A stretch of DNA of 14,865 bases from UHGV virus genome UHGV-0294841; one strand, written 5' to 3'. Within the stretch, counting starts at the first letter, position 1; the number at the start of each line of letters is the position of its first letter. The stretch comes from a virus. Below, piece after piece: positions 7,451 to 14,865 of this stretch. The translations under genes were made by a program, and so were the position numbers. The notes beneath the pieces were generated by a model. That model worked only from the letters and a program-made list of their open reading frames with translations. It had not been told where the DNA came from and ran no database searches.

Positions 7451-7801
7451 TTACTTCAGCCGTTCACGGGCCGTCTTCGCCTTATGACACGGCCAGCACA
7501 GACTCTGCAGGTTACTGTCGGCATCGGTGCCGCCATGCGCTTTGGGAATGATGTGGTCAACGGTTTTCGCCTCGCGCACCACACCGGCACGCAGACACAA
7601 CTGACACAGGCCTTTGTCACGCTTCAGGACACGCGCGCGGATACTGTCCCACTTCGAACCGTAGCCGCGCTGATGACGGGATTGTCCAGGTTTGTATTGC
7701 TTCCAGCCTTCGCTTTTGTGGCTTTCGCAGTAGCCTGAAGGGTCCGTGGTTGTAGAGCGGCAGCCGCGAACACGGCAGGCTTTTGGGGTTCGTGGGGGCA
7801 T
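7451..7801 (-). CDS. HNH homing-type endonuclease, packaging-associated
   Basis: 116 aa with paired Cys ('CRVRGC...C'), a 'DHIIPKAHGG' catalytic His and 'N...CWPCH' zinc motif. Sits immediately upstream of terminase. GGAG SD present. Confidence 0.9.
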   Translation of the reverse strand: MPPRTPKACRVRGCRSTTTDPSGYCESHKSEGWKQYKPGQSRHQRGYGSKWDSIRARVLKRDKGLCQLCLRAGVVREAKTVDHIIPKAHGGTDADSNLQSLCWPCHKAKTARERLK

Positions 7802-8145: not shown

Positions 8146-8325
8146 TCCCCGCTTTATCCAAATTGCATTGCCAGAATGCCGACAACAGACTGACATTCAA
8201 ATCCTGACTACCTCCAATAGTCTGATCGTACACCTATATAGTTTTAATTTTCATCAATCCATTTAACTATCGTTTAATTGTTGTCACATAGGATTCTGCC
8301 GTTTTTAACAATGCAGGATAATAAG

Positions 8326-8619
8326 ATGAAAAAAATGTTGTTTTCTGCCGCTCTGGCTATGCTTATTACAGGATGTGCTCAACAGACGTTTACTGTTGGA
8401 AACAAACCGACAGCAGTAACACCAAAGGAAACCATCACCCATCATTTCTTCGTTTCGGGAATTGGACAGGAGAAAACTGTTGATGCAGCCAAAATTTGTG
8501 GCGGCGCAGAAAATGTTGTTAAAACAGAAACCCAGCAAACATTCGTAAATGGATTGCTCGGTTTTATTACTTTAGGCATTTATACTCCGCTGGAAGCGCG
8601 GGTGTATTGCTCACAATAA
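8326..8619 (+). CDS. bor: Bor outer-membrane lipoprotein (lambda Bor-like, serum-resistance moron)
   Basis: 'MKKMLFSAALAMLITGCAQQTFTV...EARVYCSQ' matches my recollection of lambda Bor closely, including the ITGC lipobox. I take the start as ATG 8326 (AGGA 8 nt upstream), not the track's TTG at 8278. Opposite strand to the late operon, AT-rich. Confidence 0.9.
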   Translation: MKKMLFSAALAMLITGCAQQTFTVGNKPTAVTPKETITHHFFVSGIGQEKTVDAAKICGGAENVVKTETQQTFVNGLLGFITLGIYTPLEARVYCSQ

Positions 8620-8650: not shown

Positions 8651-9112
8651 CTATCTGCACTGCTCATTAATATACTTCTGGGTTCCTTCCAGTTGTTTTT
8701 GCATAGTGATCAGCCTCTCTCTGAGAGTGAAATAATCCCGTTCAGCGGTGTCAGCCAGTCGGGGGGAGGCTGCATTATCCATGCCGGAGGCGGTGGTGGC
8801 TTCACGCACTGACTGACAGACTGCTTTGATGTGCAACCGACGACGACCAGCGGCAACATCATCACGCAGAGCATCATTTTCAGCTTTCGCATCAGCTAAC
8901 TCCTTCGTGTATTTTGCATCGAGCGCAGCAACATCACGTTGGCGCACCTGCATGTCAGTAATTGTCGAGTTCGCCAGCTTCAGTTCTCTGGCATTTTTGT
9001 CGCGCTGGGCTTTGTAGGTAATCGCGTTATCGCGGTAATGATTAACAGCCCATGACAGGCAGACGATGACGCAGATAACCAGAGCGGAGATAATCGCGGT
9101 TACTCTGCTCAT
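8651..9112 (-). CDS. Rz: Rz i-spanin
   Basis: 153 aa with N-terminal TM ('[20 protein letters not shown]') and coiled-coil periplasmic domain. ATGA overlap with R. Closely resembles lambda Rz. Confidence 0.9.
8710..8892 (-). CDS. Rz1: Rz1 o-spanin lipoprotein, embedded in the +1 frame of Rz
   Basis: '[23 protein letters not shown]...[15 protein letters not shown]' has a lipobox (VVGC) and proline-rich stretch and is nearly identical to lambda Rz1 as I recall it. Entirely nested inside Rz. Confidence 0.85.
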
Positions 9113-9585
9113 ACCTCAATCTCTCTGACAGTTCCGCCTGCTTCCTTGAATTTTGCAATCAGGCTGTCAGCCTTATGCTCGAACTGACCATAACCAGCGC
9201 CCGGCAGTGAAGCCCAGATATTGCTGCAACGGTCAATTGCCTGACGAATATCACCGCGATCAATCATCGGTAAAGCGCCACGCTCTTTAATCTGCTGCAA
9301 TGCCACTGCGTCCTGGCTTTTGGGGGAGAAGTCTTTCAAACCAAGCTGTTTACGGTAAGCATCCCACCAGCGTGAAAGAAGCTGATAACGTCCGGCGGCT
9401 GTTGACTTGAGTTTCGGGTTTAGCGTGACAAGTTTGCGAGGGTGATCGGAGTAATCAGTGAAGAGTTCACCACCGACAATAACGTCATAACCGTGGTTAC
9501 GTGTCGGTTGTCGTCCGTTATCCGTTCCTTCTGACCAAGCCACCATATCAAGGAAAGCTTTACGCTGGGAATTTAGTACCTGCAT
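9109..9585 (-). CDS. R: Endolysin R (lambda-type lytic transglycosylase)
   Basis: 158 aa; '[45 protein letters not shown]...' matches lambda R closely from memory. Sits between holin and Rz. Confidence 0.95.
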
Positions 9586-9588
9586 AAA

Positions 9589-9915
9589 TTACTCCTTAGA
9601 GCCACCAAATTTGTTACCGATTACTCGCATTGCAGCCCCACGAATAGCATCGACACCGATCAGCCCCACCCCACCACCAATGGCAACAGATAGTGATTTA
9701 GGCCATCCGACATACTCAAGAGCGGATGCAAAAGTCAGCGTCAGAGCGCCACAGAGTAGAATTTCGAGTGTTTTTCGCTTCCAGCCGCCACCACCGCCAA
9801 AATAGGCGATACGTAAACCAGCCATAACAATCGACATAATCACTGCGCCCAGCGGTGTGTCTCCACGCCACCAGCTCTGGACCAACTCCAGCCAGGTATT
9901 TGGGTTATGAGGCAT
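9589..9915 (-). CDS. Holin (not lambda S family; multi-TM, Gly-rich)
   Basis: 108 aa immediately upstream of R with 2-3 hydrophobic segments and a GGGGG motif. ATG start with a GAGG-containing SD. Assigned by position and hydropathy rather than by family recognition. Confidence 0.7.
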   Translation of the reverse strand: MPHNPNTWLELVQSWWRGDTPLGAVIMSIVMAGLRIAYFGGGGGWKRKTLEILLCGALTLTFASALEYVGWPKSLSVAIGGGVGLIGVDAIRGAAMRVIGNKFGGSKE

Positions 9916-10066
9916 TTGTAGTTATCTCTCACCTCGCAATACAGGAGGTGCAAATTGAGGGAACATCATGTACCGCAAATCAGAAGCGGAAACGTAAAAG
10001 AAGTCGAGCCAATGGATAAGTACCAGATAGACCAAGCCCAACGAATACCAAGGCCTAGAAATGACA

Positions 10067-10088
10067 AAACCCGCTCGACGGCGGGTTT
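10067..10088 (-). terminator. Rho-independent terminator-like hairpin upstream of holin (tR'-like candidate)
   Basis: On the minus strand: aaacccgc-cgtcga-gcgggtttTGTCATTT, a GC-core stem followed by a U-rich tract. Lies ~150 bp upstream of the holin start, where lambdoid phages place the Q-antiterminated tR'. Confidence 0.5.
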
Positions 10089-10233
10089 AAGTTGTGTGGC
10101 GAAGTAACCACTCTTAACATGATACATCACTTTTTGCGGACCGTGCTAATGAAATATGTTCGTTAATTTAGTATGTTAAGGACTATCTAAATTGCCTTCA
10201 AAAAGTACAAAAAAATACAAAAAAGGGTTTCTT

Positions 10234-11331
10234 ATGAATGAGCAAACGATCAACCTTTTAAGAGATATCACCGAACGTGTTGGATGGAAGCTCACAAAAA
10301 AAATTGTGGGGGAACCACTTGGTGTCACATCAGTTGGCCTTGACCCATTTATCGCGAGGCTCCAAGCAACAGAAGATGTAGATCAGGAAGCTGTAAGTAC
10401 TCATATAGGTGAAGTATGGCAAAATTTACTATTGAGTGGGACCCGTTTAGTTAAGCTGTATAAGTTAGAACCGGAAGAAGTGCAAACTCTACGGGAGAAT
10501 ATAAATGCCCTAGAAAGAGACGAATCCGTTTTTTGCGAAAGCTATCCATATCCTTTGCCTAAAGATGTGTTGCTTGCAGCTGATACAGATCTTCATTTTT
10601 TAGAAACTACATTTTCTGTCGTAAACAAAGTTTCTTTAGAAACAACGATTCTTACGTCGAAAGCATACTACACAGAAACTATTGAACTCGACGCGACCCA
10701 TTTAAGCGATGCTGGGCTAGCTCTTCGCTCCAATGGTGGTGAAATCAAATGTAAAACACGTGAAGTTACACAGTGCTTTAATACAATAATGATTCTACCC
10801 GAGTTGCATTTACTTGCGCTCACTGTTGATTTATCTGTGATGCCTCGTTCAGAGTCGGAACGACAGCAATTTTTGCTTGATCAGTTTATTAGAACTACTA
10901 CTGGTTTGACTTTACCTGCGCCCATTGACCTCTTTGGATTAGTACAAGAAATGTACGAGCAAACAGATGGTAGAATCTCGCAGATGTCATTTCTTACATC
11001 AGATGGAAACACCAGCTCATTAAAACTCCGTCCGGGTGAAAGCTGCTTGCGCTCAGACAGCTACCATCATGGGGGCGAAGAGGCAAGTCCCATACTAACG
11101 AAATACAAACTCGGTAAAATTTGGGATCTGACTGATTCAGCTTCTCAAGTTTTCCCTGTAGAATTAATACTGCCAGGTAAACGGGCTATGATTGATAAAC
11201 CGAACAGTCACCTTTATGATGCAATCATAGATCGTTGCTCCTCAATTGAGCATATTTTGTTTGTAATCAACAAGATGTTAGAGTCACTATCAAGCATACA
11301 GAGAAAGCGAGCCACTGACGAGGCTGCATAA
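10234..11331 (+). CDS. Hypothetical protein A (365 aa), first gene of an AT-rich three-gene insert; no recognised domain
   Basis: 1.1-kb ORF in ~40% GC DNA (flanking phage genes roughly 50% or higher by my hand count), where chance ORFs are short. ATG 10234 preceded by AAAAGGG; the track's earlier start at 10192 is a TTG. 10-bp gap to gene B. Confidence 0.75.
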   Translation: MNEQTINLLRDITERVGWKLTKKIVGEPLGVTSVGLDPFIARLQATEDVDQEAVSTHIGEVWQNLLLSGTRLVKLYKLEPEEVQTLRENINALERDESVFCESYPYPLPKDVLLAADTDLHFLETTFSVVNKVSLETTILTSKAYYTETIELDATHLSDAGLALRSNGGEIKCKTREVTQCFNTIMILPELHLLALTVDLSVMPRSESERQQFLLDQFIRTTTGLTLPAPIDLFGLVQEMYEQTDGRISQMSFLTSDGNTSSLKLRPGESCLRSDSYHHGGEEASPILTKYKLGKIWDLTDSASQVFPVELILPGKRAMIDKPNSHLYDAIIDRCSSIEHILFVINKMLESLSSIQRKRATDEAA

Positions 11332-11341
11332 AGAGTTGATT

Positions 11342-11764
11342 ATGTTAACTAAACACGACATATACTCGAAAATCAACCACGACCTACATGGGCCGGTTGG
11401 AGATTTATGTCGTGTTGTGGTTGATTTTTTAACCAGCAAAGAAGCTAAGTCACTGAAACACATAACATATGTAAGTTTGGTTAATGGTACTAAGCTTGAT
11501 GTGCAAAATAACGATGCCAAAGTTTTACTGATCAAAGTAACTGACTATCTTTCGAGCAACAGAATGCACTTGCTAGATATGCATTTCCAGTATATCGAGT
11601 CTGACGATAGTGATCCTATTCCCGTCGATGATGATGACGTGTCTCATGCGCTTCATACAGGTAAGTTTTATCATCCTTACAGTGGTCAATTAGTCGATAA
11701 TTATAATCATTATTTGTTCCCATACTTCACTCCTACTGAGGCTTTGGAGGAATTACATGAGTGA
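11342..11764 (+). CDS. Hypothetical protein B (140 aa), acidic
   Basis: ATG 11342 with AAGAG SD. Stop overlaps gene C start by 8 bp (ATGAGTGA). Acidic tract 'ESDDSDPIPVDDDDV'. No family recognised. Confidence 0.7.
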   Translation: MLTKHDIYSKINHDLHGPVGDLCRVVVDFLTSKEAKSLKHITYVSLVNGTKLDVQNNDAKVLLIKVTDYLSSNRMHLLDMHFQYIESDDSDPIPVDDDDVSHALHTGKFYHPYSGQLVDNYNHYLFPYFTPTEALEELHE

Positions 11765-12392
11765 ATGTAATTTCAACCTTGCCCAATTAGACACCTTAAG
11801 TCAATTTGACCCTGAATTGTCTGGTTTTCTTAAGCGAAAATTTGCAGCAAGTCACGACGATTTCGTGAAGCAACTTTACGTTGACCTTGATGACGCGATG
11901 TATGTTTTGGAAACCCAAAAACATATGTATCAAACACAGCAGTGGGGTGAAGATGAGCTCACATCAGTTATTATTGCTTTTTTGAAAGGCCGTAATTATG
12001 ACGCTGAACATGACACTCAGCATGGAGGGCATATAGATATATTAGTTAAACATCAGCTCGGCCGATTTGCATGGATTGGCGAAGCTAAATTATGGAAAGG
12101 TCCTGCGTACATCTTAGGTGGATGGAACCAGCTCAACGAGCGATATGGCACTGGCACTGCGCGTGACAACCATGGTGGCATTATCATTTACTGTAAAATT
12201 AAGAAATCTGGCGAGAGACTTGATGACTGGCGAAAGCATCTTCAGCAGGAAGTAGCTGATGCAAAAATTACAACCGACGAGGATAATCCCTTGCGATTCA
12301 TGAGTACAACATTGCATCCAGCTACAAATCAACCATATTATGTAAGACATATGGTCGTTTCATTATTTCATGCTACAGGAGACTCAGAGTAG
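11757..12392 (+). CDS. Hypothetical protein C (211 aa) with PD-(D/E)xK nuclease-like motif
   Basis: 'GEDELTSVIIAFL...GGHIDILVKHQLGRFAWIGEAKLW' places an Asp at the end of a hydrophobic strand 15 residues before an E-A-K triplet, the classic PD-(D/E)xK arrangement, with an upstream Glu-containing helix. ATG start coupled to gene B. The 3' end overlaps the Q gene 3' end by 25 bp, convergently. Confidence 0.75.
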   Translation: MSECNFNLAQLDTLSQFDPELSGFLKRKFAASHDDFVKQLYVDLDDAMYVLETQKHMYQTQQWGEDELTSVIIAFLKGRNYDAEHDTQHGGHIDILVKHQLGRFAWIGEAKLWKGPAYILGGWNQLNERYGTGTARDNHGGIIIYCKIKKSGERLDDWRKHLQQEVADAKITTDEDNPLRFMSTTLHPATNQPYYVRHMVVSLFHATGDSE

Positions 12393-12754
12393 TCATCCAT
12401 TTCAAGTTTCACATCCAGCATACTTAGGCAGCCATCGATAAAACCTTCAGCAACCTGTATCTCGATACGTATCAATTTTTCGTCTTTATTACGTGCCTTT
12501 GCGATCTTTCTTTTCGAGATGCCATACAGGTAATGAGCCACAATCAAAGAATGTTCGTACGGTTTTCTCTTCTTAAGAAGAGCAAGGCTACCTTCAATAA
12601 TTAATGCATCACTATCTGAACAAGCTAGACGTGTCTTTCTGGTATATGGAAGAAGCCCCTTAAACCCAGCAGCTATAGACGAATAGTCAACTCCTGAGCT
12701 ATCACTCGCTGCCCATGCCCCCCAACGTTCAAGGATCATCTGTATATTACGCAT
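12368..12754 (-). CDS. Q: Late-gene antiterminator Q (21/82/QuuD-like family)
   Basis: 'MRNIQMILERWGAWAA...SSIAAGFKGL...IEGMLSMLDVKLEMD' resembles QuuD/Q21-type antiterminators as I recall them, and the ~128-aa size fits. Start taken as ATG 12754 with GGAGA SD. Sits upstream of the lysis cassette. Confidence 0.75.
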   Translation of the reverse strand: MRNIQMILERWGAWAASDSSGVDYSSIAAGFKGLLPYTRKTRLACSDSDALIIEGSLALLKKRKPYEHSLIVAHYLYGISKRKIAKARNKDEKLIRIEIQVAEGFIDGCLSMLDVKLEMDDYSESPVA

Positions 12755-12772
12755 CAACTTTCTCCGAAAAAA

Positions 12773-13768
12773 TCAGGCCAGCACGCCAATTGCCAGCGCA
12801 CGATCGATAAAACGAAATATCAGCTCCAACTGGGAACCATACTTCTCTTCAAATGCCACGGTATCCGCATGCAGCTCGTCGTGATGCTTTCTGCACAAAG
12901 GCAACACAAAGAGGTCATGCGCTTTTGTACCCATTCCACCCTGACCATGGCCTATCAGGTGGTGGGGATCATCAGCAGGCTTTCCACAACATGTACACGG
13001 CTGTGTCTTAACCCAGCGCGTGTACTTTTCATTAACCCAGCGGCGACGTTTTGGGCGTAACATAAAAGACTCCGGCGACTCCGGATCCACTTTCAGCGCC
13101 AGCACCTTTTTTGCCTTATCCTGGATGATGCTGGTGGCAGGAACCGAAGGCACAAGGTCACTTTCCCGGGTGACAGACGGCACAACAGGCTTTGGTAATC
13201 TCAGTGCCTTACGGGCTGCACTTTCCGGTAAGGCATCCGCCAAGTCATTACGAATCAGCCACCAGCACAGTTCCGGCATTGTCACAACGTGACTATCATC
13301 AAAACCGAGATCCCGACGCACAACAGACAACATCCAGCGGGCACAGTTATCCGTTGCCATTGATTCCAGCCGTTCCGTGAACTGATCGCGCAGCTGGTTA
13401 TCGCAGTGCCAGCACAGACGGATTGCGCCCGGAGCGTGTCGCATTGTTGTCATGTTCTCGCTGTGCCAGTCGGAATGAGGCCACTGGCAGCCTTTTTCAC
13501 GAAGTAACCAGCTTTCAAGACATTCCACGCCACCAGCACGACGGATCACTGCCTCATTGCGGAACACGGCCCGAACGGCAGGATCATCCGCCAGCGGTTG
13601 TGATGCCGCCGGAACGGCACCACTGGCGAAAGATGAATAACGTTCCGGCTCAGGCTCCAGCAGGACACGCCCCTGCATAAACAGGGGCATCAGCTCTGAA
13701 CCTGGTCTGAACAATACGATCCCCATACGTGGGGCAATTTCAGGGGTCAGTAGTGCTCTCACGGTCAC
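12773..13768 (-). CDS. DUF968-family prophage protein (YdfU-like) with C-terminal Cys/His HNH-like cluster
   Basis: 331 aa; C-terminus 'CTCCGKPADDPHHLIGHGQGGMGTKAHDLFVLPLCRKHHDELH' is the zinc-finger/HNH-like tail I associate with DUF968 proteins of lambdoid prophages. Track start is GTG; an internal ATG at 13726 is an alternative. Confidence 0.7.
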   Translation of the reverse strand: MTVRALLTPEIAPRMGIVLFRPGSELMPLFMQGRVLLEPEPERYSSFASGAVPAASQPLADDPAVRAVFRNEAVIRRAGGVECLESWLLREKGCQWPHSDWHSENMTTMRHAPGAIRLCWHCDNQLRDQFTERLESMATDNCARWMLSVVRRDLGFDDSHVVTMPELCWWLIRNDLADALPESAARKALRLPKPVVPSVTRESDLVPSVPATSIIQDKAKKVLALKVDPESPESFMLRPKRRRWVNEKYTRWVKTQPCTCCGKPADDPHHLIGHGQGGMGTKAHDLFVLPLCRKHHDELHADTVAFEEKYGSQLELIFRFIDRALAIGVLA

Positions 13769-13769
13769 C

Positions 13770-14579
13770 TCAATGAACGGTATCGAGCAGCTTTAACAGC
13801 TCAGGGAATCGGGATTCGAAGAAATGCGGCTGCGTCTCGCGCGGATTTGCGGGACTGGTGATGTTCTTGCCGAACATGCAGCCTTTCGCTGTCAGCGACC
13901 AGAATTTTTTGATGTTGTTAATCGCGGTACGACTGTATCGTTCGCGTTGTTCAACGATCCCCAGCTTCGCCATCTGGTGATATGCCTGATTAGCCGTCAG
14001 GCGTATACCATACTGTTTCAGCAGTGCACTCAGTGACAGTGTCGGGCGACTTGAGCCATCGTGTGCATCAGCAGGAGCATCAATGGCATAGCGCGGTGCC
14101 AGATTCGGTAAGCCAACAGCCTCCTGGAGTTTCTGACAGGCACCAAGCACAGATGAGTTAGACAGGTTTAACTCCCGACGCATAAAGTCCAGCAGAATCA
14201 CACCAGCCTGCATCTTGTCAGCAGCCTGTCCGGATAATTTTTCCGGTGCGCTGGTTACCATGTCGAAAGTACGGATCACCTTCAGATGGAATGACGGGCT
14301 GATCCACATTGCATAGGCATACACCAGTTCCTTGCAGACATAAGTTCCCCGTTCATTTCCCCCATGAATCACACTCACCGGGTCAACACCCAAATTCTGG
14401 GTGTTGGTCAATTCATGAACAAGCTCAACAGTTTGTTGGCTGGAAAGAAACTTTCCCGGCTCCTTGGTTCTGGCATTTGCACCAGATGCTACTGCTGCGC
14501 GATGCAGATCGTTCAGGCTGTAACGCCCATAAGCATCACGACGAACTTCAATACCATCAATGACCATCAGATTATTCAT
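13770..14579 (-). CDS. KilA-N domain protein (antirepressor-like)
   Basis: N-terminus 'MNNLMVIDGIEVRRDAYGRYSLNDLHRAAVASG...' is KilA-N-like. I start it at ATG 14579 (GAGGAG SD about 10 nt upstream) rather than the track's GTG at 14612. Confidence 0.7.
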   Translation of the reverse strand: MNNLMVIDGIEVRRDAYGRYSLNDLHRAAVASGANARTKEPGKFLSSQQTVELVHELTNTQNLGVDPVSVIHGGNERGTYVCKELVYAYAMWISPSFHLKVIRTFDMVTSAPEKLSGQAADKMQAGVILLDFMRRELNLSNSSVLGACQKLQEAVGLPNLAPRYAIDAPADAHDGSSRPTLSLSALLKQYGIRLTANQAYHQMAKLGIVEQRERYSRTAINNIKKFWSLTAKGCMFGKNITSPANPRETQPHFFESRFPELLKLLDTVH

Positions 14580-14598
14580 ACTTCGTTTCTCCTCTTGA

Positions 14599-14865
14599 TC
14601 AGGCGGCTGCACCCGCCGTTTTCTCGTACTTACTGATAGTGATCTCGACCTTCCCTTTCGGGATAACCGGTCCCCACTCCACCAGCATTCTTTTCACCTG
14701 ACTGTCGTCTTCCCACACACCCGCGTGGGTCAGGGCGTCAAACAGCGCCTTGTTATAGTTGTCCAGATCGCGGATCCGGTTATCCGGAGGAAACAACACG
14801 ATCTCCACTGAAGCAGGTGCCGACGTTGGTTTTGGCAGACGACGTAACTGCTCAACTATTGCTGC
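14599..14865 (-). CDS. rusA: RusA-family Holliday junction resolvase, 5'-partial (runs off the window end)
   Basis: 'PPDNRIRDLDNYNKALFDALTHAGVWEDDSQV' matches the RusA catalytic-region signature (RRRDLDN...FDAL...DD). Hand translation of 14809-14865 in frame gives 19 further codons with no stop, so the true start lies beyond the window. Confidence 0.85.
   Translation of the reverse strand, partial: AAIVEQLRRLPKPTSAPASVEIVLFPPDNRIRDLDNYNKALFDALTHAGVWEDDSQVKRMLVEWGPVIPKGKVEITISKYEKTAGAAA

What the first reader, a model, noticed from the sequence alone, without database searches (positions are those of the whole stretch)
9916..10233. tR'-like terminator and probable displaced late promoter/qut region upstream of the holin
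A terminator-like hairpin (10067-10088, minus strand) lies about 150 bp upstream of the holin, as expected for the Q-antiterminated tR'. Because the Q gene's 3' end abuts the inserted operon, the late promoter pR' and Q-binding site must lie in this interval, separated from Q by about 2.3 kb of foreign DNA, unless late transcription is disabled. The same interval must also hold the plus-strand promoter of the inserted operon; a weak candidate is -35 TTTGCG (10133-10138) with -10 TATGTT (10155-10160).
Basis: partly seen in the sequence, partly recalled or inferred. Interest (0 to 1): 0.45.

Follow-up and report, generated by a model that had tools for sequence, protein, structure and literature searches.

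The report
Displaced phage late promoter and terminator
The interval holds the prophage's compact late-gene switch (late promoter, probable Q-loading site and terminator), cut off from its Q gene by 2.2 kb of backwards-facing cargo; this is an ordinary, already known kind of element, here in a new allele.

Summary
The window is an E. coli lambdoid prophage (SfII/mEp460/DLP12-like) with its late genes on the minus strand. A roughly 95-bp module at 10150 to about 10056 (minus strand) holds a -10 hexamer TATCAT (10124-10119), a predicted start at A10112, a 5-bp leader hairpin, and an intrinsic terminator (10088-10067 plus T-tract).

- In cargo-less relatives the module begins 6 nt after the Q stop codon. 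Phage 21, which has the same Pfam Q family, has the same compact plan.
- The homologous A is a mapped transcription start in K-12 DLP12 (Cappable-seq).
- It also fits the published 258-nt PR'-to-tR' distance of Stx phage Sp5.
- A dyad element (CGGTCCG, 10143-10137) lies a fixed 15 nt upstream of the -10. It matches the Q allele class in 87 of 87 unique loci, across 25 different cargo insertions. It is a likely Q-binding site, but this is inferred.

Caveats:
- The -35 is poor (TTAGCA at 19-bp spacing).
- The pause element is unresolved.
- In Stx phages the homologous hairpin is read through.

This is a new member of a known kind, of modest interest.

The parts
12368..12757 (-). Q antiterminator gene (129 aa), Q21/933W family, allele class 'Q2'
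   Evidence: Pfam PF06530, E = 3.9e-50, covering profile positions 1-118 of 118. PHROG 79. Distant match to the Q21 structures 6p18/6jnx. The C-terminal tail after ...LEMD varies with the cargo.
10234..12392 (+). Three-gene reverse-strand cargo operon inserted between Q and the late promoter
   Evidence: ORFs. PHROGs 12777, 11490 and 9664, all of unknown function. No Pfam or NCBIfam hit. Absent from the cargo-less relatives L001 and L006, where 23 bp stand in place of window 10151-12390.
10144..10149 (-). -35-like hexamer TTAGCA, with a poor 19-bp spacer to the -10
   Evidence: scores it 9 of 12 together with TATCAT. The homologous K-12 and 933W copies have TTTACG at 16 bp.
10135..10145 (-). 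Dyad element CACGGTCCGCA (core CGGTCCG at 10143-10137), centred 15-16 nt upstream of the -10; candidate Q-binding element
   Evidence: The element class matches the Q allele class in 87 of 87 unique loci over 25 cargo clusters. All five element variants keep the dyad and the same distance to the -10. The Q classes differ most in the HTH-like segment.
10119..10124 (-). pR' -10 hexamer TATCAT
   Evidence: Ten variants occur in the same register among homologues. Nine are TAnnnT, and all ten keep the A at -11 and the T at -7.
10112..10112 (-). Predicted late transcription start (A), 7 nt after the -10
   Evidence: The homologous A in K-12 DLP12 is a Cappable-seq start site: U00096.2 position 576452, equal to NC_000913.3 position 577229. 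In Sakai Sp5 the homologous A lies exactly 258 nt before the end of the tR' T-tract, as published.
10108..10115 (-). Invariant AAGAGTGG straddling the start (-3 to +5); possible sigma-dependent pause element
   Evidence: TAAGAGTGGTTA is invariant in all family variants, 933W included. It resembles the lambda element AACGAT-GGG, which is recalled from memory. Its function was not tested.
10096..10111 (-). Leader hairpin 1 (GUGGU-UACUUC-GCCAC); its loop holds TACTTC (10106-10101), the alternative pause-element candidate
   Evidence: Fold. 933W has TACATT at the same place, next to its annotated 'qut'. The loop varies as TACTTC, TACATT, TACTTT, TACTAC and TAGTTC.
10056..10088 (-). Intrinsic terminator (stem-loop 10088-10067, then UUUUGUCAUUU); tR'-like
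   Evidence: The same hairpin follows lambda-type pR'-like modules and carries the same downstream flanks in other phage contigs. It is annotated 'possible rho-independent terminator' in 933W.
9589..9915 (-). Holin S, the first late gene downstream
   Evidence: PF05106, E = 5.7e-25. No second terminator-like site lies between 10056 and 9916.
10133..10160 (+).
   Evidence: Scores 7 of 12. Its -35 lies inside the dyad element. The equivalent arrangement, TTGCGT-17/18-TAnnnT, recurs in 11 of 12 cargo clusters of the Q3 class, but in only 2 of 10 of the window's Q2 class.
10149..10177 (+). Alternative cargo promoter candidate, ATGAAA-17-TATGTT
   Evidence: Best plus-strand match at 8 of 12. A -10-like hexamer at +31 or +32 from the dyad centre recurs in 5 of 10 Q2-class cargo clusters. 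This is not significant after correcting for the number of positions.

Best explanation
Window 10150 to about 10056 (minus strand) is the prophage's late regulatory unit, of the compact type used by Q21/933W-family antiterminators.

Proposed mechanism:
1. Sigma-70 RNA polymerase starts at about A10112 from a promoter with the -10 hexamer TATCAT (10124-10119) and a weak -35.
2. Without Q, the roughly 50-nt leader forms the hairpin at 10088-10067 and transcription ends in the U-tract, before the holin gene.
3. Q is made from 12368-12757, 2.2 kb away across a backwards-facing three-gene cargo operon. It acts in trans.
4. Q binds promoter DNA, most likely the allele-specific dyad CGGTCCG centred about 28 bp upstream of the start.
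5. Q then loads onto polymerase paused early in the leader and carries it through the terminator into the holin, lysozyme, Rz and morphogenesis genes.

Basis for each step:
- Shown by sequence and comparison: the elements and their positions, the insertion, and the homology to units with mapped start sites.
- Inferred: Q binding at the dyad, the pause site, and the efficiency of termination.
For: 1. **Position.** In the cargo-less relatives PhiR49_2 (L001) and L006, the homologous 85 bp starts 6 nt after the Q stop. The window has 2240 bp in place of 23 bp.
2. **Architecture.** The phage 21 record annotates, in order: Q stop, then 6 nt, then -35, QBE, -10, TSS, SDPE, and a terminator at +3 to +50. 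The size and order are the same here, and both Q proteins are PF06530.
3. **The -10 hexamer.** Ten variants occur in register; nine are TAnnnT, and all keep A-11 and T-7.
4. **Experimental start sites in homologues.**
   - K-12 DLP12 has a Cappable-seq TSS at U00096.2 position 576452. This equals NC_000913.3 position 577229, exactly 7 nt after TATGCT. The 777-nt coordinate offset was verified with essD.
   - About 16,359 TSS clusters over 9.3 million strand-positions give roughly 0.2% chance of such a coincidence.
   - In Sakai Sp5 the homologous A lies 258 nt before the end of the tR' T-tract. This equals the published PR'-to-tR' distance, with the same 142-nt offset at both ends.
   - 933W annotates pR', qut and a terminator on the homologous bases.
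5. **Junction constancy.** Twenty-five unrelated cargo clusters all abut the module at about -38 to -46 and never closer.
6. **Dyad element.** Q class maps one-to-one to the element (39+3, 25, 17 and 3 unique loci, with no mismatches). Meanwhile the flank downstream of the terminator assorts freely. The distance to the -10 is fixed. The Q classes differ mainly in the HTH-like segment, and Q1 and Q4 share the N-terminal half but differ there and in the element.
7. **Terminator.**. The same hairpin with the same flanks follows lambda-type pR'-like modules elsewhere.
Against: - The window's -35 is poor: TTAGCA at 19 bp, and only 2 of 6 at 17 bp. The window also lacks the A-tract seen upstream in most relatives. 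The promoter may therefore be weak.
- The K-12 start site is weak, with a read score of 1.7 against a threshold of 1.5.
- No convincing sigma-dependent pause element was found. TACTTC lacks the T at -7, and AAGAGT straddles the start.
- The dyad differs in kind from the direct-repeat QBE of phage 21. Its match to the Q class could reflect co-inheritance of the Q-cargo-element block rather than recognition, because no cargo cluster is shared between Q classes.
- In Stx phages the homologous hairpin does not stop all transcripts, since a 258-nt RNA accumulates in lysogens. The window's U-tract (UUUUGU) is shorter than that of 933W (U7).
- Rfam has no matching family.
- No transcript data exist for this prophage itself.
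Confidence: 0.8

Rival explanations
1. The module is a decayed or silent remnant. The late promoter of this prophage is non-functional, and the lysis and morphogenesis genes are not expressed from here; the prophage is cryptic.
For: - The -35 is poor with a 19-bp spacer, and one base of the dyad flank differs from the class consensus: GCACGG against GCGCGG.
- The DLP12 copy belongs to a defective prophage and fires only weakly.
- Many DLP12-like copies carry stem-weakening changes such as GAGCTGG.
Against: - The -10 matches 5 of 6, and the core CGGTCCG, the leader and the terminator are all intact.
- Q covers the full Pfam profile.
- The holin, lysozyme, Rz and terminase ORFs are intact.
- The same 4.8 kb is 99.8% identical in 11 complete E. 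coli genomes and 99.1% identical over 96% of it in a twelfth, and the same module and cargo are in an IMG/VR viral contig, L047.
Confidence: 0.1
2. The dyad element is not the Q-binding site. It is either the shared back-to-back -35 region of two divergent promoters (pR' and the cargo promoter) or the operator of another regulator. Q recognises other bases, for example the invariant TAAGAGTGGTTA or the spacer next to the -10.
For: - In Q1-class copies each half of TTTACG..CGTAAA is a -35-like hexamer on its own strand.
- In the Q3 class, TTGCGT followed by 17 bp and TAnnnT recurs on the cargo strand in 10 of 12 cargo clusters at one exact position, against a background of about 5% per position.
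- The phage 21 QBE is a direct repeat lying nearer the -10.
- The Q-to-element match can be explained by linkage.
Against: - Cargo-less phages and 933W keep the dyad with no gene to drive on the other strand.
- The spacing to the pR' -10 is fixed in all five variants, whereas the spacing to cargo-side hexamers is not.
- The element changes together with the HTH-like part of Q, even between Q1 and Q4, which share the rest of the protein.
Confidence: 0.3
3. The hairpin is only a leaky attenuator or a general mosaic-joint terminator, not an efficient tR'. Late genes are kept off mainly by other means, such as weak promoter activity, Rho or translation control.
For: - 933W and Sp5 carry the same hairpin at +25 to +49, yet a 258-nt RNA ending at a second terminator accumulates in lysogens.
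- The window has only four U residues before a G.
- The hairpin family also ends many unrelated phage genes.
- Kim 2012 lists a 7-read 5' end just after the K-12 terminator.
Against: - The stem has 8 bp and the leader fold is -18.5 kcal/mol.
- It is the only terminator-like site between the start and the holin.
- It is retained with every cargo type and with lambda-type pR' modules.
- RNAs of about 50 nt would be missed by standard RNA-seq, so the Stx data do not measure its efficiency.
Confidence: 0.2
4. The hairpin merely terminates early rightward transcripts that run through Q and antisense across the cargo. pR' lies elsewhere, for example inside the cargo or just upstream of the holin.
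For: - No strong minus-strand terminator lies between Q and 10088, so such transcripts would end here.
- A weak minus-strand match, TTAACA-15-CATATT, lies at 10179-10153.
Against: - That match lies in cargo-specific DNA absent from relatives.
- Between the terminator and the holin, only a single match of 7 out of 12 exists.
- Mapped start sites in two homologous systems fall inside the module.
Confidence: 0.04

Closest known systems
pR'-qut-terminator region of Stx phage 933W / Sakai Sp5 (the Q933 system, source of the StxS RNA)
   Same: - It is homologous base for base from the dyad to the first hairpin: TTTACGATCGTAAA...TATCAT-GATAAG-A(+1)GTGGTTAC...AACCCGCC...GCGGGTTTTTTT.
- Both Q proteins are PF06530.
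- The start site is mapped at the homologous A.
   Different: - The Q allele is about 43% identical.
- The dyad is TTTACG/CGTAAA rather than CGGTCCG.
- The hairpin-1 loop is TACATT against TACTTC.
- 933W has a further 200-nt leader and a second terminator at +258 that yields StxS; the window has neither.
- In 933W the unit overlaps the Q stop codon; here it is 2.2 kb away.
DLP12 cryptic prophage of E. coli K-12: quuD - nmpC (reverse strand) - module - essD
   Same: - The layout is the same: Q, then reverse-strand cargo, then the module, then the holin.
- The module is 88% identical over 77 bp.
- A Cappable-seq start lies at the homologous A.
- The literature reports Q-dependent control of the lysis cassette (cited in PMC7918800; the original papers are not held).
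   Different: - The Q class differs (Q1, 46% identity), and the dyad is TACGTACGTA.
- The -35 is TTTACG at 16 bp.
- The cargo is a porin gene interrupted by IS5, and the holin is of a different family.
- The prophage is defective.
Phage 21 late regulatory cassette (Q21, PDB 6P18/6P19)
   Same: - The Pfam family is the same.
- The plan is the same compact one: the promoter begins 6 nt after the Q stop, the QBE lies between -35 and -10, and the terminator lies within the first 50 nt or so.
   Different: - There is no DNA similarity.
- The Q21 QBE is a direct repeat (ATTGAGCA AATGAGCA) at -27 to -12; here the element is a dyad centred near -28.
- The SDPE TAAGCTG lies at +2 to +8 in phage 21; here it is unresolved.
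- Q is only about 26% identical.
- The phage 21 unit is adjacent to Q.
Shigella phage SfII and coliphage mEp460 (Q - reverse cargo - module - S)
   Same: - The arrangement is the same.
- In SfII, the holin-side DNA is 92% identical up to window position 10141.
- Reverse-strand hypothetical genes lie between Q and the module.
   Different: - The Q class is Q3, with the dyad GCGTACGC.
- The cargo genes differ.
- No regulatory annotation exists in those records.

Membership tests
Q21/933W-family Q-dependent late regulatory cassette | A Q antiterminator protein of Pfam PF06530 | tested here: met
   E = 3.9e-50 over the full-length profile. Yin et al. assign PF06530 to the Q21/Q933W family.
Q21/933W-family Q-dependent late regulatory cassette | A constitutive sigma-70 promoter (pR') with a defined start upstream of the late genes | tested here: met
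   The -10 is conserved as TAnnnT. Start sites are mapped at the homologous base in K-12 and Sp5. The start was not measured in this prophage, and the -35 is weak.
Q21/933W-family Q-dependent late regulatory cassette | A Q-binding element in promoter DNA between -35 and -10 | tested here: inconclusive
   A Q-class-specific dyad lies at a fixed distance from the -10. Binding was not tested, linkage cannot be excluded, and the symmetry differs from the Q21 QBE.
Q21/933W-family Q-dependent late regulatory cassette | A sigma-dependent pause element (-10-like) in the initially transcribed region | tested here: inconclusive
   Two candidates exist: AAGAGT-GG at -3 to +5 and TACTTC at +7 to +12. Neither is a good -10 match.
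Q21/933W-family Q-dependent late regulatory cassette | An intrinsic terminator between the start and the first late gene | tested here: met
   Hairpin at 10088-10067 followed by a U-tract. Its efficiency is unknown.
Q21/933W-family Q-dependent late regulatory cassette | The cassette lies immediately downstream of the Q gene | tested here: not met
   It is separated from Q by 2218 bp of reverse-strand cargo. Adjacency is usual but not mechanistically required, because Q acts in trans. DLP12, SfII and 25 cargo clusters share the split.
Q21/933W-family Q-dependent late regulatory cassette | Q-dependent readthrough of the terminator | not testable with these tools
   This needs reporter fusions or in vitro transcription with and without Q.
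StxS-type regulatory sRNA (leader RNA of the Stx phage PR') | A 258-nt PR' leader ending at a second terminator, processed by RNase E to a 74-nt Hfq-binding RNA | tested here: not met
   The window has no sequence homologous to 933W +50 to +258 and no second terminator. Only the first roughly 50 nt are shared.
Lambda-type pR'/6S RNA unit | A Q protein of PF03589, the pause element AACGAT at +1, and tR' at +194 | tested here: not met
   Q is PF06530 and the leader is about 50 nt. Lambda-type modules seen share only the terminator hairpin.

The most novel reading that the evidence does not exclude
The allele-specific dyad centred about 28 bp upstream of the late start may be the so far undefined Q-binding site of the 933W/DLP12 branch of the Q21 family. 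It would be bound symmetrically, unlike the direct-repeat site of Q21.

It also forms the -35 region of a divergent promoter that drives whatever reverse-strand cargo (defence or moron genes) sits in this hotspot. Q binding would therefore switch late genes on and the cargo promoter off in one step. The Q/pR' junction would be a dedicated exchange site for at least 25 cargo types.
Probability: 0.2. Interest if true: 0.6.

Novelty: new member of a known kind. Interest (0 to 1): 0.33.

Why it matters
- **Annotation.** It places the late-gene switch of this prophage, and of the more than 1200 E. coli genomes that carry the same module, at single-base resolution. It also shows that Q and its target site can be split by kilobases of foreign DNA without losing the matched pair. 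Annotators who look for pR' right after Q would miss it.
- **Q-binding site.** The comparative data nominate a testable Q-binding site for the medically relevant Q933 branch, which controls Shiga toxin.
- **Cargo hotspot.** The Q/pR' junction emerges as a recurrent landing site for reverse-oriented cargo, including candidate defence genes. The expression of that cargo may be wired to the lysis-lysogeny state.

Tried and rejected
- **Rfam.** A scan of 9500-12900 at E <= 1 gave no family. In particular there was no StxS-like or 6S-like hit.
- **Standard promoter scan.** It found nothing in the interval at 9 of 12 or better. My looser scan shows many equal weak matches, so consensus alone cannot place either promoter.
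- **K-12 3'-end data.** Adams 2021 supplements hold no entry near essD. SMRT-Cappable-seq holds none either.
- **Cargo-direction start in K-12.** A search of the Cappable-seq table found nothing, but the stored file is truncated.
- **Papers not held.** Rueggeberg 2013 and 2015 on DLP12, Thomason 2015 and Plunkett 1999 are not in the library. The Sy 2020 supplements are not held either.
- **Compensatory changes in the stems.** The homologues are too similar; variation is confined to the loops and the U-tract.
- **TAAGAG as an extended -10, or as positionally equivalent to the phage 21 SDPE.** Rejected, because the mapped start lies inside it.
- **An upstream A-tract (UP-like) as part of the module.** It is present in most relatives but not in the window.
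- **Cargo function.** It has only PHROGs of unknown function and one weak PADLOC hit. I did not pursue it further.

Full report
**Context.** The window is an E. coli lambdoid prophage related to Shigella phages SfII and SfIV and coliphage mEp460. The 4.8 kb around the finding is 99.8% identical in 11 complete E. coli genomes and 99.1% identical over 96% of it in a twelfth.

The phage genes run on the minus strand:
- KilA-N protein, 13770-14612
- DUF968/HNH protein, 12773-13768
- Q, 12368-12757 (PF06530, E = 3.9e-50)
- holin, 9589-9915 (PF05106)
- lysozyme, 9109-9585
- Rz, 8651-9112
- HNH and terminase genes further on

Between Q and the holin lie three plus-strand ORFs (10234-11331, 11336-11764, 11757-12392) in low-GC DNA. 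They have no Pfam or NCBIfam hit and match only PHROGs of unknown function. The stop of the last ORF overlaps the Q stop by 25 bp, and the two genes converge.

**The observation.** The hairpin AAACCCGC-CGTCGA-GCGGGTTT at 10088-10067 (minus strand), followed by TGTCATTTCT, is real. It is the only terminator-like site between the cargo and the holin. It lies 152 nt upstream of the holin ATG.

**What the interval is.**
- *An insertion next to Q.* Local BLAST against relatives shows that window 10066-10150 is homologous to the 85 bp that directly follow Q in the cargo-less phage PhiR49_2 (L001) and in an E. coli prophage (L006). There the segment begins 6 nt after the Q stop. The window has 2240 bp (10151-12390) in place of 23 bp. 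The cargo is thus an insertion between Q and an approximately 90-bp module.
- *A widespread module.* The module occurs in 1249 of 5426 complete E. coli genomes.
- *A recurrent layout.* In SfII, mEp460, UTI89, APEC37, EBJ001 and K-12 DLP12 the layout is the same: Q, a reverse-strand cargo, the module, then late genes. The cargo genes include hypothetical genes, a KAP NTPase, a Clp-fold serine protease and nmpC.
- *A constant junction.* A pattern scan of IMG/VR returned 120 further copies. They fall into 25 unrelated cargo clusters plus the cargo-less form. In every case the cargo-specific DNA stops about 38-46 nt upstream of the predicted start.

**Comparison with a characterised system.**
- *Q family.* Yin et al. 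place Q21 and Q933W in PF06530. The window's Q is a distant relative of the Q21 structures.
- *Phage 21 plan.* The curated phage 21 record (OL657228) annotates the following: the Q stop; the -35 hexamer TTGACA 6 nt later; a QBE of two direct 8-bp repeats between -35 and -10; the -10; the TSS; an SDPE at +2 to +8; and a terminator ending near +50.
- *The window.* The module has the same size and order of parts.

**The promoter.**
- *The -10 hexamer.* Immediately before the invariant GTTAAGAG, all copies carry a hexamer in one register: TATGCT, TAATCT, TATCGT, TACTGT, CAGTAT, TATTGT, TAGTGT, TACTCT, TAATGT, or TATCAT in the window. Nine of the ten are TAnnnT, and all ten keep the A at -11 and the T at -7 while the inner bases drift. 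This is the signature of a -10 element. It predicts a start at the A seven bases on, which is window position 10112.
- *K-12 start site.* In K-12 DLP12 the module lies at NC_000913.3 577207-577285. The Cappable-seq table of Ettwiller et al. lists a plus-strand TSS at U00096.2 position 576452 (read score 1.7, log2 enrichment 4.8). The 777-nt coordinate offset is confirmed by essD (576621 against 577398). That TSS is therefore 577229, exactly the predicted base.
- *Sp5 start site.* In Sakai prophage Sp5 and phage 933W the region after Q is homologous to the module. The sequence reads TTTACGATCGTAAA...TATCAT-GATAAG-A-GTGGTTACATTGCCAC...AACCCGCCGATGCGCGGGTTTTTTT. From the homologous A to the last T of the second terminator is 258 nt. 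This is the PR'-to-tR' distance that Sy et al. mapped by dRNA-seq and Term-seq, and both of their coordinates are offset by the same 142 nt.
- *Conclusion.* The module is the late promoter region of this phage family. The window carries an intact copy.
- *Weakness.* The -35 is poor: TTAGCA at 19 bp, against TTTACG at 16 bp in K-12 and 933W.

**The candidate Q site.**
- *The dyad.* Between -35 and -10 every copy has a dyad-symmetric element. The variants are CGCGGTCCGCA (CACGGTCCGCA in the window), CGCGTACGCA, TTTACGTACGTAAA, TTTAC-AATC-GTAAA, TTTACGATCGTAAA in 933W, and TGTTATAACA. In all of them the dyad centre lies 15 nt upstream of the -10 hexamer (15 intervening bases where the dyad has a central base, as in the window's class).
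- *Match to Q class.* Clustering the upstream Q proteins at 75% identity gives four classes. These map one-to-one to the element types with no exception in 87 unique loci (42, 25, 17 and 3). Ten cargo clusters occur with the window's class and twelve with the SfII class. By contrast, the sequence after the terminator assorts freely within cargo clusters.
- *Where the Q classes differ.* The classes differ most in the helix-turn-helix-like segment that aligns with the Q21 DNA-binding region. Classes Q1 and Q4 share the N-terminal half but differ there and in the dyad.
- *Assessment.* I read the dyad as the likely Q-binding element, but this is inferred. Because no cargo cluster is shared between Q classes, co-inheritance of the Q-cargo-element block could also produce the pattern. 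In addition, the known Q21 site is a direct repeat nearer the -10.

**The leader and terminator.**
- *Fold.* From A10112 the RNA folds into a 5-bp hairpin (10111-10096) and the terminator hairpin (10088-10067), followed by UUUUGUCAUUU. The energy is -18.5 kcal/mol, z = -3.3.
- *The hairpin elsewhere.* A second IMG/VR scan anchored on the hairpin shows that the same terminator with the same downstream flanks follows lambda-type pR'-like modules (TTGCAT...TAAGAT...AACGATGGGC). It also follows the ends of unrelated genes. It is therefore a shared late-operon terminator and a mosaic joint.
- *Efficiency caveat.* In 933W and Sp5 this hairpin is only the first of two. The 258-nt RNA seen in lysogens shows that some polymerases pass it without Q. 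The window has no second terminator and a shorter U-run. Its efficiency therefore needs measuring.
- *Pause element.* This remains unresolved. TAAGAGTGGTTA is invariant across all variants, and AAGAGT-GG resembles the lambda pause element, but it straddles the start. The alternative, TACTTC in the hairpin-1 loop (TACATT in 933W, next to its annotated 'qut'), lacks the T at -7.

**The plus-strand cargo promoter.**
- *Where it must lie.* On logic alone it must lie between the hairpin and the ATG at 10234.
It is tied with seven other matches and sits below ATGAAA-17-TATGTT at 10149-10177, which scores 8 of 12.
- *Evidence from the SfII Q class (Q3).* A divergent promoter that uses the dyad as its -35 does exist there. 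Ten of 12 cargo clusters have TAnnnT exactly 17 bp after TTGCGT and one more at 18 bp, against a background of about 5% per position.
- *The window's class (Q2).* Here the pattern is irregular. Two clusters have a hexamer at +15 or +16, and five have one at +31 or +32.
- *Conclusion.* Neither candidate is established.

**Verdict.**
- *What it is.* The feature is a compact pR'-qut-tR' unit of the Q21/933W family, in a new Q/site allele, split from its Q gene by a reverse-strand cargo. DLP12, SfII and many other prophages have the same split.
- *Novelty.* It is a new member of a known kind, and on its own of modest interest.
- *By-products worth following up.* These are the class-specific dyad as a candidate Q933-branch binding site, the fixed junction as a cargo hotspot, and the possible coupling of the cargo promoter to Q.

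Noticed in passing
window 10234-12392 (+): The three-gene cargo operon (365, 142 and 211 aa) has no Pfam or NCBIfam family. It matches PHROGs 12777, 11490 and 9664, all of unknown function. The third protein has a weak PADLOC hit to PDC-S54 (E = 7e-6). This may be a defence system. Its stop overlaps the Q stop by 25 bp, and the two genes converge.
   Followed up: partly
L002-L129 (IMG/VR, phage and E. coli loci), at the junction equivalent to window ~10150: At least 25 unrelated reverse-strand cargo clusters, 0.6-3 kb long, occupy the same slot between the Q stop and position about -40 of the late promoter. They include a KAP NTPase, a Clp-fold serine protease, the porin gene nmpC and many hypothetical genes. 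The slot is a cargo hotspot with fixed borders.
   Followed up: partly
L003, L015, L032, L060, L125, L121, L119, L080, L002, L090 (Q3-class loci), cargo strand: A -10-like TAnnnT hexamer lies exactly 17 bp after TTGCGT, the cargo-strand half of the dyad, in 10 of 12 cargo clusters. This looks like a divergent cargo promoter that shares the dyad with pR'.
   Followed up: partly
window 10108-10119 (-), and all homologues including 933W (L130 1197-1208): TAAGAGTGGTTA is invariant, even where the -10, the hairpin loops and the terminator loop vary. It straddles the mapped start site. Its role is unexplained; it could be a pause element, a Q contact or a start-site determinant.
   Followed up: partly
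L134, L181, L186, L154, L170 and others: The same AACCCGCC...GCGGGTTTT hairpin, with the same downstream flanks, follows lambda-type pR'-like modules (AACGATGGGC or TAATGATGGGC) about 50-60 nt after their putative starts. It also ends unrelated genes. Terminators appear to act as recombination joints between late-control cassettes.
   Followed up: no
K-12 NC_000913.3 ~577286 (L008 ~6287): Kim et al. 2012 list a 7-read 5' end immediately after the DLP12 terminator U-tract, 112 nt upstream of essD. It may be a processed end or a weak Q-independent start.
   Followed up: no
window 12777-12797 (-): A terminator-like hairpin followed by TTTTTT lies at the end of the DUF968 gene, just upstream of the Q start. 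It may be an early-operon terminator that gates Q expression.
   Followed up: no
window 8278-8619 (+) and 7451-7801 (-): A Bor/Iss-like lipoprotein gene lies on the opposite strand, in a low-GC patch just after the lysis genes. An HNH endonuclease gene lies next to the terminase genes.
   Followed up: no
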